This document shows positions 3,419-60,046 of a DNA stretch of 64,000 nucleotides, piece by piece. The notes under the pieces were generated by a model. That model did not search any database. It was not told where the DNA came from and saw only the letters and a program-made list of their open reading frames with translations. The DNA is from the human T2T-CHM13v2.0 reference genome, Homo sapiens: assembly GCF_009914755.1 (NCBI RefSeq), contig NC_060940.1, one strand, 5' to 3'. The stretch's first letter is position 1; each line of letters begins with the position of its first letter. A program made the translations under genes and the position numbers.

Positions 3419-4465
3419 CTTTGTGGTTTTATCTACCTTTGGTCTTTGATGATGGTGACATACAGATGGGGTTTTGGTGTGGATGTCCTTTTTGTTGATG
3501 TTGATGCTATTCCTTTCTGTTTGTTAGTTTTCCTTCTAACAGTTAGGACCCTCAGCTGCAGGTCTGTTGGAGTTTGCTGGAGGTCCTCTCCAGACCCTGT
3601 TTGCCTGCGTGTCACCAGCGGAGGCTGCAGAACAGCAAATATTGCAGAACAGCAAATATTGCTGCCTGATCCTTCCTCTGGAAGCTTCATCTCAGAGGGG
3701 CACCCTGCTATATGAGGTGTCTGTAGGCCCCTACTGGGAGATGTCTCCCAGTTAGGCTACTGAGGAGGTCAGAGACCCACTTGAGGAGGCAGTCTGTCCA
3801 TTTTTAGAGCTCAAACTCCATGCTGGGAGAACCACTGCTCTCTTCAGAGCTGTCAGACAGGGACATTTAAGTCTGCAGAAGTTTCTACTGCCTTTTGTTC
3901 AGCTAAGCCTTGCCCCCAGAGGTGGAGTCTACAGAGGCAGGCAGGCCTCGAGCTGTGGTGGGCTCCACCCAGTTCAAACTTCCCAGCCGCTTTGTTTACC
4001 TGGTCAAGCCTCAGCAATGGCAGACACCCCTCCTGCAGCTTGGCTGCCACCTCACAGTTTGATCTCGGACTGCTGTGCTAGCAGTGAGCAATGCTCCGTG
4101 GGCATGGGACCTACTGAGCCATGTGTGGGATATAATCTCCTGGTGTGCCGTTTGCTAAGACTGTTGGAAAAGCACAGTGTTATGGCGGGAGTGTCCCGAT
4201 ATTCCAGGTACCGTCTGTCCATCTGTCACGGCTTCCCTTGGCTAGGAAAGGGAAATCCCCCAACCCCTTGCGCTTCCCAGGTGACGTGATGCCCTGCCCT
4301 GCTTTGGCTCACACTCCGTGAGCTGCACCCACTGTCCAACCAGTCCCAGTGAGATAAACCAAGTACCTCAGTTGGAAATTCAGAAATCACCCGTCTTCCG
4401 CATTGATCATGCTGGGAGCTGTAGACCGGAGCTGTTCCTATTTGGCCATCTTGGAATGATCCACC
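3419..4465. promoter_or_regulatory. L1 5'UTR: internal sense promoter (firing leftward) and antisense promoter (firing rightward)
   Basis: Intact YY1 motif CAAGATGGCC on the minus strand at 4444-4453. L1PA 5'UTRs are known to be bidirectional. The ZNF93-associated 129-bp segment is present at ~3575-3705. Confidence 0.7.
4017..4289 (+). CDS. L1 antisense ORF0 homologue, open, 90 aa
   Basis: MADTPPAAWLPPHSLISDCCASSEQCSVGMGPTEPCVGYNLLVCR... matches primate L1 ORF0 (MAGAPPPASLPPCSLISDCCAS...). Strong Kozak gcaATGG. C-terminus is longer than the canonical ~71 aa. Translation not shown. Confidence 0.7.
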   Translation: MADTPPAAWLPPHSLISDCCASSEQCSVGMGPTEPCVGYNLLVCRLLRLLEKHSVMAGVSRYSRYRLSICHGFPWLGKGNPPTPCASQVT

Positions 4466-4618
4466 TGCCACATTTTCTTTATCCAGTCTATCCTTGATGG
4501 ACATTTGCATTGGTTCCAAGTCTTCACTATTGTGAACAGTGCCTCAATAAACATACGTGTGCATGTGTCTTTATAGTAGAAGGATTTATAATCCTTTGGC
4601 TATATACCCAGTAATGGA
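4466..4618 (-). mobile_element. Older L1PA ORF2 3' fragment, host of the nested L1
   Basis: gccacattttctttatccagtctatc...catacgtgtgcatgtgtctttatag...tatatacccagtaatgg is the reverse complement of the L1PA ORF2 3' end. Confidence 0.88.
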
Positions 4619-4724
4619 TCATTATTTCTGTTTTTTCAATGGCAATTGTCTCCTGATCTGTTGGCTTCAGTATACTTGAGTAATGATAAAATCTACATTT
4701 TAAAACACATGAGATGTTTTTAAT

Positions 4725-6470
4725 GTATATTTGCCTTCGTTTCTTTCAGCAATATTTTGTGGTTTTTCTTGTGCAAATCTTTCGTCTCCATTGTTGTTTA
4801 TTCCTAAGTATTGTATTCGTTTCCATGCTATTGTAAATAAGATTGTTTTCTTAATTTTCATTTTGGATTGTCTGTTGTTAGTATATAGAAATGCAAATAA
4901 TTTTTGTGTGTTGATTTTGTATCCTACAATTTTGCTGAATTTATTTTTTGTGTGTAAGTATGACTAAGATCGTGTCATCTACAGAGATGTTTTTACTTCT
5001 TTCTTTCCAATTTGAATGGCTTTTATTTTTCTTGCCTAATTTTTCTGGCTAGAACTTAAATTTCTAGCCCATGGAAAAAGCAGGCATATTTGTCTTTCTC
5101 CTGATCATTGGTGAAAGACTATGATGTCAGCTGCAGATTTTTATATATGGCCTTTATTATGTTGAGGAAATGTCCTTCTATTTCTAGTGTATTGAGTATT
5201 TTATCATTTAAAAAAGTTAATATTTTTCTGCATTGATTGAGATGATTATGTGTTTTTTCCATTCTTCTCTGCATGTGGTGCATTAAATTAATTGATTTTG
5301 TTTGTTGAATCCTCTTTGTACTCAAGGAGTAAATCCTCCTTGGTCATGATATATAACCCTTTTAAAATGCTGGTGAATTTTAGTTGCTAATATTTCTGTT
5401 GAGGAACTTTTCATCAATATTCATAATCTTTCCTTGTCATGTTTTTGCCTGGCTTTGCTATCAGGGTAATCCTGGTCTCATAAAATGAGTTAGAAAGTGT
5501 TACCTCCATTTCAGTTTTCTGGAAGAGTTTGAAAAGGATTATTGTTTATTCTTCTTTAAATATTTGGTAGAATTCACTGGTAAAGCCCTCTGGTGCAGGA
5601 TTGTTCTTTGCTGAGTGGTTTGATTACTGATTTTATGTCCTTACTAGTTATAAGTCAGTTCAGATTTTGTATTTCTCCATGACTCAGGCTTGGTAGTTGT
5701 ATGTTCCTACAAATTCATTCGTTTCATCTATGTTATTCAATATTTTGGCATGCAGTTGTTCATAGTACTCTGAGATCATCCTTTTTATTTCTGTAAAATC
5801 ATAAGTAATGCTCTCACTTTCATTTCTGGTTTTAGTTATTTGAGTCTTCTCAATTTTTCTTAGTCCGGCTAAAAGTTTGTCAATTTGTTGATCTTTTCAA
5901 ATTATTAAGTTTTGGTTTTGTTGAATTTCTCTATTATTTACCTATTCTCTATTTATCTCAATTCCTTTTTTCTGCTAAATTTATGTATACTTTACTTGTC
6001 TAATTCCTTAAGGTGTAAAGTTAGGTTATTTATTTGAAATTTTTATTTTTCTTTAACGTAGGTATTTACAGCTATAAATTTCCCTCTGAGTACTGCTTTC
6101 ACTGCATCTCACAAGTTTTAGTATGTTGTGGTTTTGTTTTTATTTGTCTCAAGGCAGTTGCTACATTTTCTTCTGATTTCTTCATTTATCTTTTGGTTGG
6201 TTAAGAGTGTTTTGCTTAATTTCCACATATTTATGTATTTTCCAGTTTTCCTTTTGCTATTGTTTTCTAGTTTTATTCCTTTGTGATAAGAAAATATACT
6301 TTGTATGATTTCAGTCTTTTTAAATGTAATAAAATTTGTTTTGTGGAGTAACATGGTTTACCCTGGATATGTTCTGTGCACACTTGAGAAAAATCTGTGT
6401 TCTGTTTTTGTTGGGTGGCATGCTCTGTGTATGTTAGGTTAAATGGGCTCTCTCTGTTTCCTTATTGATC
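4725..6470 (-). mobile_element. Ancient L1M (mammalian-wide) ORF2 region, decayed
   Basis: Degenerate ORF2 peptides on the minus strand (5119-5325 ILNTLEIEGHFLNIIKAIY; 6118-6354 IIQSIFSYHKGIKLE...MWKL). Confidence 0.85.
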
Positions 6471-59000: not shown

Positions 59001-59035
59001 GATCGCACCACTGCACTCCAGCCTGGGCGACAATA
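56030..59035. mobile_element. Alu cluster (56030-56322 +, 56430-56560 +, 56615-56685 +, 56698-57020 +, 57600-57918 -, 57920-58218 -, 58393-58590 - AluJ part, 58648-59035 + with duplicated left arm)
   Basis: Alu consensus matches. Confidence 0.87.
58219..58392 (-). mobile_element. MER41(B)-like ERV1 LTR, first ~175 bp only
   Basis: Minus strand reads TGTCAGAGGCATTTGAACC...ACTCTATCTTGAATAGGGGCTGGGTAAAATAAGGCT...GCATTCTAAGTCACAGGATGAGACAGGAGG. Confidence 0.85.
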
Positions 59036-59192
59036 TAATAATAATAATTATTTTTTTTTGACAGAGACAAAAAATAATAATGATACTTTTTTTAAAAAAA
59101 GGAAAATGGGAGGTGATTGTAGAAGGTAGAGGATTTGGAGTGATAGTTCATTACAATTGTAATAAGGACCACAAGATGCTAAGAGTAATGAG

Positions 59193-60046
59193 ATGTAGCG
59201 GACGTCTGCTATTTTTGCCTGTTCAGCATCCACTCGTTCTGCTTTGTGTGATAGCACCCCAAGCTTCCTTTGAACCAGTCCTTCCTTCAGCGGAGGCCGA
59301 CCCCACCCCTTCACTCTGTGGGGTGGCCACATGACCCAGGTCTAGCCAATCAGCACATTCCATCCCGGAGCAGCAGCTGTGTGCCCCTAGCCCAAGCTAG
59401 GCTGCTCCTGGCTTTGTGTACCTATTAGGGGAAAATGTGTTCTCTTTTCACTGCAGTTGCTAAGCATGTGGGATGTAAGCCTGGACTTGCTGGTGGCTGC
59501 CTTTGCCACCGCTTAGGGAGATTCTGGCCAGGCATGAAGCCGGCACAGAGTAAATGAAGCAGGGCCAGGAGATGAGGAGAGATGGATTCTGATTGCATTA
59601 TATGAGTACTAGGATCTGTGTCTGAAATCCAAATGGCTTTTTCTTTTCTTTTCTTTTCTTTCTTTTTCGAAACGGAGCACACTCTGTCACCCAGGCTGGA
59701 GTGCAATGGCACGATCTCAGCTCACTACAACCTCTGCCTCCCGGGTTCAAGTGATTCTACTGCCTCAGCCTCCCGTGTAGCTGGGATTACAGGCGCGCAC
59801 CAACACACCCGACTAATTTTTGTATTTTTAGTAAAGACAGGGTTTCACCATGTTGGCCAGGCTGGTCTTGCACTCCTGACCTCACGTGATCTGCCCCACC
59901 TTGGCCTCCCAAAGTGCTGGGATTACAGGTGTGAACCACTGCGCCCAGCCCCAAGTGGCTTTTTCAATTACATGAGCCAACATATTCTCACAAGTCCATT
60001 CGAGTTTGGTGTCTGTTACTTGCAAATAAGGGAGTTCTGATTGGTT
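59193..60046 (+). mobile_element. LTR16-like (ERVL) LTR interrupted by an antisense Alu (59640-59950)
   Basis: cacatgacccaggtctagccaatcagcacattccat...taagcctgga...tacatgagccaa...tctgttacttgcaa. Confidence 0.7.
59670..59754 (+). other. Candidate Alu-derived terminal coding exon (K)[27 protein letters not shown]; the acceptor reads CG in this copy
   Basis: In frame with the phase-2 donor at 55197. Counting from ATG 49438 gives 249 aa, the length and C-terminus I recall for the annotated putative SNX29P2 protein. Confidence 0.55.

What the first reader, a model, noticed from the sequence alone, without database searches (positions are those of the whole stretch)
3900..59754. Candidate four-source chimeric gene: L1 antisense promoter/ORF0 -> BANP exons -> SNX29 exons -> Alu exon
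Seen: neither duplicated gene fragment brings its own promoter or first exon, yet all seven exons lie on + with GT-AG boundaries intact. The only recognisable promoter in the window is the 5'UTR of the minus-strand L1, whose antisense promoter would fire rightwards, 12 kb before BANP exon A. Known: L1PA antisense promoters drive spliced chimeric transcripts into flanking exons, and 16p duplication blocks juxtapose fragments of unrelated genes. Inference: a retrotransposon promoter, two duplicons and an exonised Alu could together form one new transcription unit.
Basis: partly seen in the sequence, partly recalled or inferred. Interest (0 to 1): 0.85.

Follow-up and report, generated by a model that had tools for sequence, protein, structure and literature searches.

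The report
SNX29P1 chimeric pseudogene; L1 promoter unproven
This is the already described human pseudogene SNX29P1, a duplication-made mosaic whose BANP-derived exons splice onto SNX29-derived exons; the idea that a nearby old L1 retrotransposon supplies its promoter is possible from the sequence but has no support so far.

Summary
The sequence features exist. A minus-strand L1 ends at 4454. It has an open 90-codon ORF0-like frame (4017-4286) and GT donors after 4207 and 4280. Three BANP-derived and four SNX29-derived exons lie on + with AG/GT intact. An antisense Alu offers a possible 73-nt exon.

The substantiated part is not new. RefSeq NR_045011.1 already joins BANP exons B and C to the SNX29 exons, and NAR 2026 (PMC13122177) lists SNX29P1 as BANP 105 bp + SNX29 878 bp.

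Local alignments refine the anatomy:
- 11818-30307 comes from BANP.
- 30108-56614 comes from SNX29, joined to the BANP piece inside an Alu.
- 30571-32259 exists only in SNX29P1 and SNX29P2.
- 56614-64000 is a third 16p duplicon, and it holds the Alu.
- The L1 lies 7.4 kb outside the block, in single-copy DNA.

The L1 is old: it is 86-88% identical to the nearest scored copies and its CpG o/e is 0.24. SNX29P2 has no such L1 in the 24 kb before the corresponding point. No SNX29P1 entry appears in the held supplements of three L1-chimera studies.

The L1-to-BANP and SNX29-to-Alu junctions remain untested. I think transcription most likely starts inside the BANP-derived DNA near 18.6 kb.

The parts
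1..4454 (-). L1PA-type LINE-1 that runs off the window start. Its 5' end is at 4454, its 5'UTR is about 3419-4454, and its ORF1 ATG is near 3418.
   Evidence: sequence. (other L1 copies align to 1-4454 at 88-93%). (5'UTR part 86-88% identical to the 39 other places scored, of 6977 candidates). (17 CpG, o/e 0.24).
4017..4289 (+). ORF0-like open frame antisense to the L1 5'UTR: 90 codons plus TGA. GT donors follow 4207 and 4280, and a weak one follows 4122.
   Evidence: No Pfam family. The name ORF0 rests on its position in the L1 and on recall of Denli et al. 2015, which I did not read here.
11760..11817 (-). Antisense Alu stub that abuts the proximal edge of the duplicated block.
   Evidence: boundary sequences of SNX29P1, SNX29P2 and BANP..
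11818..30307 (+). BANP-derived duplicon, equal to G000:C16:94099742-94117885 at 93-96% identity.
16434..16570 (+). BANP-derived exon A. It is not in the RefSeq model. Acceptor ...ccccacag|, donor |gtacgt.
18642..18709 (+). BANP-derived exon B, which is RefSeq exon 1. The splice acceptor sits before 18647, so the model starts 5 nt inside the intron.
   Evidence: and the hub gene table.
21379..21417 (+). BANP-derived exon C, which is RefSeq exon 2. Its donor splices to 45923.
   Evidence: and the hub gene table.
21402..21651 (+). Tandem repeat of an 82-bp unit, 3 copies, that repeats the end of exon C together with its donor motif.
30066..30429 (.). Alu at the BANP/SNX29 junction. The two parental homologies overlap at 30108-30307.
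   Evidence: overlapping alignments. (54 hits within the window). Hub repeat mask.
30571..32259 (+). Stretch found only in SNX29P1 and SNX29P2. It is absent from the SNX29 parent, where the flanks lie 15 bp apart.
30108..56614 (+). SNX29-derived duplicon, equal to G000:C16:12064884-12089715 at 95-96% identity.
45923..46104 (+). SNX29-derived exon S1 (RUN domain part). It carries a 1-nt insertion at 45975 that shifts the frame.
   Evidence: (RUN PF02759, E 4.4e-8, for 45977-46102).
49410..49480 (+). SNX29-derived exon S2.
51395..51640 (+). SNX29-derived exon S3. It has a 3-nt in-frame deletion relative to the parent, shared with SNX29P2.
54822..55198 (+). SNX29-derived exon S4. The RefSeq model ends exactly at its donor AAG|gtaagt.
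   Evidence: and the hub gene table.
56614..64000 (+). Third duplicon, with copies at G000:C16:28608149-28615567 and in SNX29P2.
59678..59750 (+). Candidate 73-nt exon in an antisense Alu. Its use is not shown.

Best explanation
The window holds SNX29P1, a transcribed chimeric pseudogene built by 16p segmental duplication.

Structure (shown):
- An 18.5-kb piece of BANP with three internal coding exons was joined, inside an Alu, to a 26.5-kb piece of SNX29 with four internal exons (end of the RUN domain plus linker).
- That pair was then joined to a third 16p duplicon.
- Because every exon kept its splice sites, the last BANP exon (C), having lost its own downstream partner, splices to the first SNX29 exon (S1). 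This gives the known BANP-SNX29 (BANP-RUNDC2A) RNA.
- The junction is out of frame. The BANP frame stops 7 codons into S1. S1 also carries a 1-nt insertion shared with SNX29P2.
- The longest SNX29-frame ORF starts at an internal ATG (MLLADRC...) and runs 241 codons to the end of the model.

Start and end of the RNA (inferred):
- Transcription most likely starts inside the BANP-derived DNA close to exon B. The RefSeq 5' end is at 18642, inside a RefSeq 'enhancer' feature at 18285-19092.
- It most likely does not start at the L1 14 kb upstream. That L1 is a resident of the acceptor locus, with intact-looking antisense-promoter anatomy but no evidence of use.
- The 3' end is unknown. The Alu exon is one candidate.
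For: Parental origins and boundaries come from local megablast of the window against fetched own-genome stretches and from own-genome searches.

Splice sites and frames.

RUN-domain match of the S1 piece after the frameshift: PF02759, E 4.4e-8, 33.8 bits against a cutoff of 22.

The RefSeq blocks sum to 983 nt. This equals the 983 bp (BANP 105 + SNX29 878) given for SNX29P1 in PMC13122177 Table 1, whose acknowledgements mention validation of the BANP-RUNDC2A fusion point (passages).

The L1 is outside the block. BANP and SNX29P2 homology both begin at 11818, and 4650-8780 is single-copy apart from repeats of 88% identity or less, mostly 67-74%.

L1 age and decay: 86-88% identity to the 39 other places scored, of 6977 candidates; 17 CpG in 1036 bp, o/e 0.24.

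No RefSeq transcript or listed functional element lies in the L1, whereas three listed 'enhancer' features lie at 16573-19898 around the annotated start (hub table).

Supplement text searches for SNX29P1, SNX29P2, RUNDC2B and BANP found 0 occurrences in three studies:
- PMC4908685 (10 files; this search also included RUNDC2C and SNX29)
- PMC9396940 (3 files)
- PMC10879037 (9 files)
Against: The RefSeq model is probably incomplete at both ends. It starts 5 nt inside the intron before exon B and ends exactly at the S4 donor, so the true start could lie upstream, at exon A or beyond.

No CpG island or classical promoter is visible near 18.6 kb. The CCGGAAG motif at 18566-18572 and the T-rich stretch before 18642 are ancestral BANP intron sequence, unchanged in SNX29P1, SNX29P2 and BANP. 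They do not explain why the copy should initiate there.

SNX29P1 lacks 18.1 kb of upstream BANP sequence that SNX29P2 keeps. A promoter used by SNX29P2 could therefore be missing in SNX29P1, which would leave room for a locally acquired one.

The supplement searches cover only files held as text and depend on gene naming. Multi-mapping reads in duplications are often discarded in such surveys.

I had no CAGE, EST or long-read data.
Confidence: 0.6

Rival explanations
1. The antisense promoter of the minus-strand L1 fires rightwards from about 3900-4100. A donor at 4207 or 4280 splices to BANP exon A or B, making the L1 the promoter (or an alternative, tissue-restricted promoter) of SNX29P1, possibly with ORF0 fusion peptides.
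For: The orientation is right. The L1 has its full 5' end at 4454. It has an open 90-codon ORF0-like frame and GT donors at L1 positions of about 247 and 174.

The duplicated block brings no first exon, and there is no CpG island elsewhere in the window.

The RefSeq 5' end looks truncated.

Criscione et al. report that 626 of 2015 ESTs for L1 antisense transcripts start in primate-specific pre-Ta L1s and that 2134 of 2316 overlaps are sense to the gene (PMC4908685, section 'Properties').

In silico, 4207->S2 is in the SNX29 frame (295 codons, open-ended). 4207->A stays open for 207 codons, though in non-native frames.
Against: No transcript evidence: none in RefSeq (hub table) and none in the held supplements of three L1-chimera studies.

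The L1 5'UTR is decayed (CpG o/e 0.24) and 12-14% diverged from the nearest scored copies.

The donors lack consensus at +4 to +6.

12 kb with five + strand AATAAA hexamers (4546, 6328, 7104, 8050, 13313) lie between the L1 and exon A.

4280->A stops after 2 codons, and 4280->B ends in the same out-of-frame stop as the BANP frame.

The long open frames lie in GC-rich exons, where open frames are common.
Confidence: 0.1
2. Transcription comes from further upstream in the single-copy 16p12.2 flank. One source would be read-through or intergenic splicing from the + strand transcribed pseudogene ABCA15P, which ends 12 kb before the window. Another would be an unannotated start between 4.5 and 16.4 kb. 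Either would enter through the strong acceptor of exon A or B.
For: ABCA15P is on the same strand and close (hub table). Exon A has a good acceptor and donor but is missing from the RefSeq model, which looks 5'-incomplete. The block has no first exon of its own.
Against: No annotated transcript joins them (hub table). The distance from the end of ABCA15P to exon A is about 28 kb. I had no data on read-through.
Confidence: 0.15
3. The locus makes only low-level, heterogeneous RNAs that start at several weak sites in open chromatin of the BANP-derived part. Those sites would be enhancer-type initiation. There would be no defined promoter and no fixed 3' exon, and the Alu exon and exon A would be used rarely or never.
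For: RefSeq lists enhancer and silencer features, not a promoter, at 16573-19898 (hub table). There is no CpG island. There is one RefSeq transcript, and both of its ends are ragged. The Alu donor motif is shared by 8 antisense Alus in the window.
Against: SNX29P1 (alias RUNDC2B) is consistent enough in expression to sit in lymphoma cell-of-origin classifier gene lists (PMC6167379, one passage; titles and listing).
Confidence: 0.15

Closest known systems
SNX29P2 (RUNDC2C), the 16p11.2 paralogue at G000:C16:29585971-29655900
   Same: It has the same BANP|Alu|SNX29|third-duplicon mosaic and is 96.4-98.8% identical over window 11818-64000. It shares the 1-nt insertion in S1 and the 3-nt deletion in S3, and the stretch 30571-32259 that has no other source.
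   Different: SNX29P2 keeps 18.1 kb more upstream BANP sequence. It has no L1PA-like sequence in the 24 kb before the point that matches 11818. Its first exon C donor is GT>CT. A protein product has been claimed for SNX29P2 in PMC11087800; I saw only the search listing and the start of the abstract.
Chimeric transcribed pseudogenes from segmental duplication, as catalogued in PMC13122177 (HYDIN2, GTF2IP1, ANAPC1P2, PI4KAP2 and others)
   Same: Fragments of two parental genes are fused in introns, splice sites are retained, and one chimeric RNA results. SNX29P1 is itself in that catalogue.
   Different: That paper places SNX29P1 among the 'complex, mosaic' fusions with intergenic insertion and did not analyse it further. 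It proposes that chimeric pseudogenes use the 5' parent's promoter. That cannot hold here, because the BANP piece starts in an intron 4.6 kb before exon A.
L1 antisense-promoter chimeric transcripts (for example the 988 genes of Criscione et al. 2016, PMC4908685; L1-MET recalled)
   Same: A full L1 5'UTR lies antisense and upstream of same-strand exons, with donors in the 5'UTR.
   Different: No start site or junction evidence exists for this locus, and the gene is absent from the held supplements. The L1 sits outside the gene rather than in an intron downstream of a normal start, which is the usual case described.
Alu exonisation (antisense right-arm Alu exons; Lev-Maor 2003 and Sorek 2004 are recalled, not read here)
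   Same: An antisense Alu with a T-tract, an AG at 59676-77 and a GT in the TTCAA|GTGATT context. It is the first such Alu after the orphaned S4 donor.
   Different: Inclusion is not shown. The motif occurs in 8 Alus of this window alone. The Alu belongs to a different duplicon from the SNX29 exons.

Membership tests
Segmental-duplication chimeric transcribed pseudogene | Fragments of two different parental genes are juxtaposed in one locus. | tested here: met
   Window 11818-30307 equals C16:94.10 Mb (the BANP locus, as named by PMC13122177) and 30108-56614 equals C16:12.06-12.09 Mb (the SNX29 locus), at 93-96% identity.
Segmental-duplication chimeric transcribed pseudogene | An RNA crosses the fusion through retained splice sites. 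| tested here: met
   Splice sites are intact. The junction 21417->45923 is in RefSeq NR_045011.1 (hub table) and in PMC13122177 Table 1. I saw no reads myself.
Segmental-duplication chimeric transcribed pseudogene | Disabling lesions or truncation relative to the parents. | tested here: met
   Only internal exons are present. The C->S1 junction is out of frame, with a stop after 7 codons. There is a 1-nt insertion at 45975.
L1 antisense-promoter chimeric transcript | An L1 with its 5'UTR present, antisense to and upstream of the target exons. | tested here: met
   The L1 5' end is at 4454 on the minus strand and the exons are on + from 16434.
L1 antisense-promoter chimeric transcript | A transcription start inside the L1 5'UTR on the antisense strand. 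| not testable with these tools
   No CAGE, EST or long-read data were available. No RefSeq feature is listed there (hub table; 2 functional elements are unlisted).
L1 antisense-promoter chimeric transcript | A splice junction from the L1 5'UTR into a gene exon. | tested here: inconclusive
   GT donors exist. There were 0 occurrences of the gene names in the held supplements of PMC4908685, PMC9396940 and PMC10879037. Those surveys may drop duplicated loci.
L1 ORF0 | A primate L1 5'UTR antisense ORF of about 70 codons with two downstream-facing donors. This definition is recalled from Denli et al. 2015, which I did not read here. | tested here: inconclusive
   The ORF at 4017-4286 is open for 90 codons, with donors at 4207 and 4280. 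No profile exists to test homology (Pfam gave none).
Exonised Alu | An antisense Alu with a usable 3' and 5' splice site. | tested here: met
   AG at 59676-77 after a T-rich tract, and GT at 59751-52. Alu identity is supported by 53 hits within the window.
Exonised Alu | Inclusion in a mature RNA. | not testable with these tools
   It is not in the RefSeq model, which stops at 55198 (hub table).

The most novel reading that the evidence does not exclude
An old L1PA that was resident at the 16p12.2 acceptor site before the duplication landed supplies a tissue-restricted alternative first exon to SNX29P1, for example in ES cells, germ line or tumours. SNX29P1 has lost 18 kb of upstream BANP DNA that SNX29P2 keeps. 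Under this reading SNX29P1 RNAs would begin with ORF0 codons and, through 4207->S2, could encode an ORF0-SNX29 fusion of at least 295 residues. The transcription unit would then be assembled from a retrotransposon, two gene fragments and a further duplicon.
Probability: 0.08. Interest if true: 0.5.

Novelty: already known. Interest (0 to 1): 0.2.

Why it matters
As it stands this is an ordinary annotated pseudogene. Its chimeric BANP-SNX29 RNA is in RefSeq and in print.

What remains open is modest but concrete: where SNX29P1 RNAs really start and end. The BANP piece has no first exon. SNX29P1 lacks 18 kb that SNX29P2 keeps. The reference model is ragged at both ends.

If the L1 turned out to be the start, the locus would be a neat example of a duplicated gene fragment rescued by a retrotransposon promoter already present at the landing site. 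Even that would be a new member of a well-known class, L1 antisense chimeras.

The boundary map given here (11818, 30108-30307, 30571-32259, 56614) and the SNX29P1/SNX29P2 differences in exons give the paralogue-specific markers needed for that test. Those differences are at 16485, 18673, 46016, 46025, 54873 and 54966, plus the exon C donor at 21418.

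Tried and rejected
Whole 16-kb chunks searched against the own genome were swamped by L1 and Alu hits, and only 39 and 37 candidates were scored. I replaced this with fetched parental stretches and local megablast.

My first BLAST of the SNX29P2 upstream region against the window returned nothing. I suspected an error. A 14-mer count (36 shared words in 24,095 bases) showed that the absence is real.

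I looked for further BANP coding exons after exon C in 21418-30400 by reading + strand open frames of 50 residues or more. None looked like coding sequence to me. This check was by eye and is weak.

I looked for further domain-bearing exons in 11818-16433 and 30108-45922. Of 149 + strand open frames of 40 residues or more, none matched RUN or BEN, and two matched unrelated families below their cutoffs. Short exons and domain-free BANP exons would be missed.

The CCGGAAG motif before exon B was considered as a gained promoter element. I rejected it as SNX29P1-specific because it is unchanged in SNX29P2 and BANP.

The intron between exons A and B holds no LTR-like repeat that could act as a promoter. 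It holds only an old repeat of about 200 bp at 73-79% identity.

- Paper reading closed, so PMC10619931 and the ORF0 literature were not read.

The bioRxiv version of the pseudogene paper (10.1101/2025.10.01.679709) was seen only in the listing. Its supplements and those of PMC13122177 were not seen, and they may hold the SNX29P1 fusion-point sequence and promoter-mark figures.

Full report
**What is in the sequence**

The window is T2T-CHM13 chr16:21266001-21330000 (hub note; confirmed as G000:C16).

A LINE-1 on the minus strand fills 1-4454.
- Other genomic L1 copies align up to 4454 at 88-93% identity.
- The ORF1 start reads at about 3418 on the minus strand, which gives a 5'UTR of about 1036 bp.

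On the + strand, antisense to that 5'UTR, an ATG at 4017 opens a 90-codon frame that ends at TGA 4287-4289.
- GT follows 4207 (CAG|GTACCG) and 4280 (CAG|GTGACG).
- The position of this frame and of the two donors, at L1 nucleotides of about 438, 247 and 174, agrees with what I recall of ORF0 (Denli et al. 2015). I did not read that paper here. No profile exists to test the homology: Pfam returned nothing.

Seven exons lie on the + strand, each with AG before and GT after.

| Exon | Coordinates |
|---|---|
| A | 16434-16570 |
| B | 18647-18709 |
| C | 21379-21417 |
| S1 | 45923-46104 |
| S2 | 49410-49480 |
| S3 | 51395-51640 |
| S4 | 54822-55198 |

An antisense Alu offers a 73-nt exon at 59678-59750, with AG at 59676-77 and GT at 59751-52.

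**Where the pieces come from**

I fetched stretches of the same genome and aligned them locally to the window.

- Window 11818-30307 matches chr16:94099742-94117885 at 93-96%. This is the locus that PMC13122177 names BANP.
- Window 30108-56614 matches chr16:12064884-12089715 at 95-96%. This is SNX29; the S1 piece after the frameshift matches the RUN domain (PF02759, E 4.4e-8).
- The two homologies overlap by 200 bp inside an Alu (30066-30429), so the fusion lies in an Alu.
- Just after it, 30571-32259 is present only here and in SNX29P2. It is missing from the SNX29 parent, where the flanks lie 15 bp apart.
- At 56614 the SNX29 homology stops. At that point a third duplicon begins, with copies at chr16:28608149-28615567 (98-98.7%) and in SNX29P2. 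The candidate Alu exon lies in this third piece, not in SNX29-derived DNA.
- The paralogue SNX29P2 (chr16:29.60-29.66 Mb) matches window 11818-64000 at 96.4-98.8%.

The L1 is not part of any of this.
- Both the BANP and the SNX29P2 homologies begin at 11818, next to a 58-bp antisense Alu stub.
- Window 4650-8780 is single-copy apart from repeats of 88% identity or less, mostly 67-74%.
- SNX29P2 continues 18.1 kb further into BANP sequence, to 29585971 = BANP 94081131.
- The 24 kb before the point in SNX29P2 that matches 11818 shares only 36 14-mers with the whole window, so SNX29P2 has no L1 of this kind there.

SNX29P1 therefore looks like a secondary, 5'-shortened copy that landed 7.4 kb from an L1 already resident in 16p12.2. 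That order of events is inference. The L1 5'UTR is 86-88% identical to the 39 other places scored, of 6977 candidates. SNX29P1 and SNX29P2 differ by 1.2-3.6%.

**What is already known**

RefSeq NR_045011.1 (hub table) consists of 18642-18709, 21379-21417, 45923-46104, 49410-49480, 51395-51640 and 54822-55198. These blocks sum to 983 nt.

PMC13122177 (NAR 2026; passages seen):
- It lists SNX29P1 as 983 bp, made of BANP 105 bp plus SNX29 878 bp.
- It names the chimeric transcript BANP-RUNDC2A.
- It classes the locus among 'complex, mosaic' fusions with intergenic insertion.
- It thanks a colleague for validating the fusion point.

The BANP-to-SNX29 link is thus annotated and published.

That paper's general proposal is that such pseudogenes use the promoter of the 5' parent. 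It cannot apply here, because the BANP piece begins in an intron.

**Coding capacity**

- The BANP frame (exon A from MMSTPPP..., then B and C) runs into S1 out of frame and stops after 7 codons, giving 85 codons in all.
- S1 carries a 1-nt insertion at 45975 relative to SNX29, shared with SNX29P2. S3 has a shared 3-nt deletion.
- The longest SNX29-frame ORF begins at an internal ATG in S1 (MLLADRC...) and is open for 241 codons to the end of the model.
- SNX29P1 and SNX29P2 differ at two positions within that ORF (54873, 54966).
- A protein from SNX29P2 has been claimed in PMC11087800. I saw only the listing and the start of the abstract.
- Exonic divergence from the parents is about 2.5% (28 events in 1115 nt, counted), against 4-5% overall. 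That is what a neutrally evolving copy of a constrained parent would give (inference).
- Intact splice sites are likewise unsurprising. I estimate the chance of no change in 28 splice bases at roughly 0.3-0.6. SNX29P2 has in fact lost the exon C donor (G>C).

**The L1 promoter hypothesis**

For it:
- The orientation is right, the L1 has its complete 5' end, the ORF0-like frame is open and there are two GT donors.
- The duplicated block has no first exon.
- There is no CpG island anywhere in the window.
- The RefSeq model looks incomplete at both ends. It starts 5 nt inside the intron before exon B and stops exactly at the S4 donor.
- Criscione et al. found that 626 of 2015 supporting ESTs start in primate-specific pre-Ta L1s (PMC4908685; sections read).

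Against it:
- No annotated RNA or listed functional element lies in the L1 (hub table; two elements are not listed).
- The 5'UTR keeps only 17 CpG (o/e 0.24).
- The donors lack the consensus at +4 to +6.
- 12 kb with five AATAAA hexamers on + separate the L1 from exon A.
- The names SNX29P1, SNX29P2, RUNDC2B and BANP do not occur in the held supplements of three L1-chimera studies: PMC4908685 (10 files), PMC9396940 (3 files) and PMC10879037 (9 files).

These absences are weak evidence. Duplicated loci are often dropped, and only files held as text were searched.

The in-silico fusions are not evidence either way. 4207->A stays open for 207 codons but in non-native, GC-rich frames. 4207->S2 is in the SNX29 frame (295 codons, open-ended). 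4280->A stops after 2 codons.

**Where transcription more likely starts**

The annotated 5' end at 18642 lies inside a RefSeq 'enhancer' feature (18285-19092), with two more listed at 16573-17132 and 19093-19898 (hub table). SNX29P1 (alias RUNDC2B) is a B-cell lymphoma classifier gene (PMC6167379, one passage; listings).

I therefore think initiation in open chromatin of the BANP-derived intron near exon B is the most likely mechanism. This is inference.
- The nearby CCGGAAG motif (18566-18572) is ancestral and unchanged in SNX29P1, SNX29P2 and BANP.
- The A-B intron holds no LTR-type repeat.

Entry from the upstream flank or from ABCA15P, and diffuse weak initiation, are the other rivals.

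**The Alu exon**

The sequence is competent, and it is the first such Alu after the orphaned S4 donor. The SNX29 frame would stay open through it. However, the same TTCAAGTGATT context occurs in 8 antisense Alus of this window, among 53 Alu hits, and nothing shows that it is used.

**Verdict**

- The features are real.
- The core claim, a BANP-SNX29 chimera, is already known.
- The two novel links, L1 to BANP and SNX29 to Alu, are untested. I put the L1 link at about 0.1.
- The useful additions here are the exact mosaic map, the finding that the L1 belongs to the acceptor site and is absent from SNX29P2, and the SNX29P1-specific markers for a decisive cDNA or CAGE test.

Noticed in passing
window 21402-21651: An 82-bp unit repeated 3.0 times starts inside BANP-derived exon C. 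It repeats the exon end with its GGTCAG|GTGAGTG donor motif, giving two more donor-like sites downstream. A 29-bp unit repeated 4.6 times lies just upstream, at 21212-21343. The alignments to BANP and SNX29P2 break here, which suggests copy-number differences.
   Followed up: partly
SNX29P2, base matching window 21418 (G000:C16, near 29613315): The paralogue has C instead of G at the first base of the exon C donor (GT>CT). SNX29P2 therefore cannot make the same C->S1 junction from that site.
   Followed up: partly
window 30571-32259: A 1.7-kb stretch at the BANP/SNX29 junction occurs only in SNX29P1 and SNX29P2 (96%) in the whole assembly, apart from an Alu-like part. The SNX29 parent lacks it, with the flanks 15 bp apart. 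Its origin is unknown: either it was lost from the parent or its donor locus is gone.
   Followed up: partly
window 11818-64000 against SNX29P2: Identity between the two paralogues rises along the block: 96.4% (11818-12535), 97.3% (12552-21285), 98.0% (21270-28759) and 98.8% (28625-64000). This may reflect different ages of the parts, gene conversion or composition. I did not pursue it.
   Followed up: no
window 4455-4640: Directly beyond the L1 5' end lies a short + strand fragment that reads like the 3' part of L1 ORF2 (my reading from recall; masked in the hub table). It holds an AATAAA at 4546, 92 bp beyond the L1 5' end on the + strand, the direction the antisense promoter would transcribe.
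   Followed up: no
window 55215-55250: A (GT)n microsatellite follows the S4 donor within 20 nt, and an antisense Alu starts at about 55260. The alignment to the SNX29 parent breaks here (55204/55247).
   Followed up: no
window 3620-3660: A short direct duplication (cagaacagcaaatattgc, twice) lies in the L1 5'UTR near its ORF1-proximal end.
   Followed up: no
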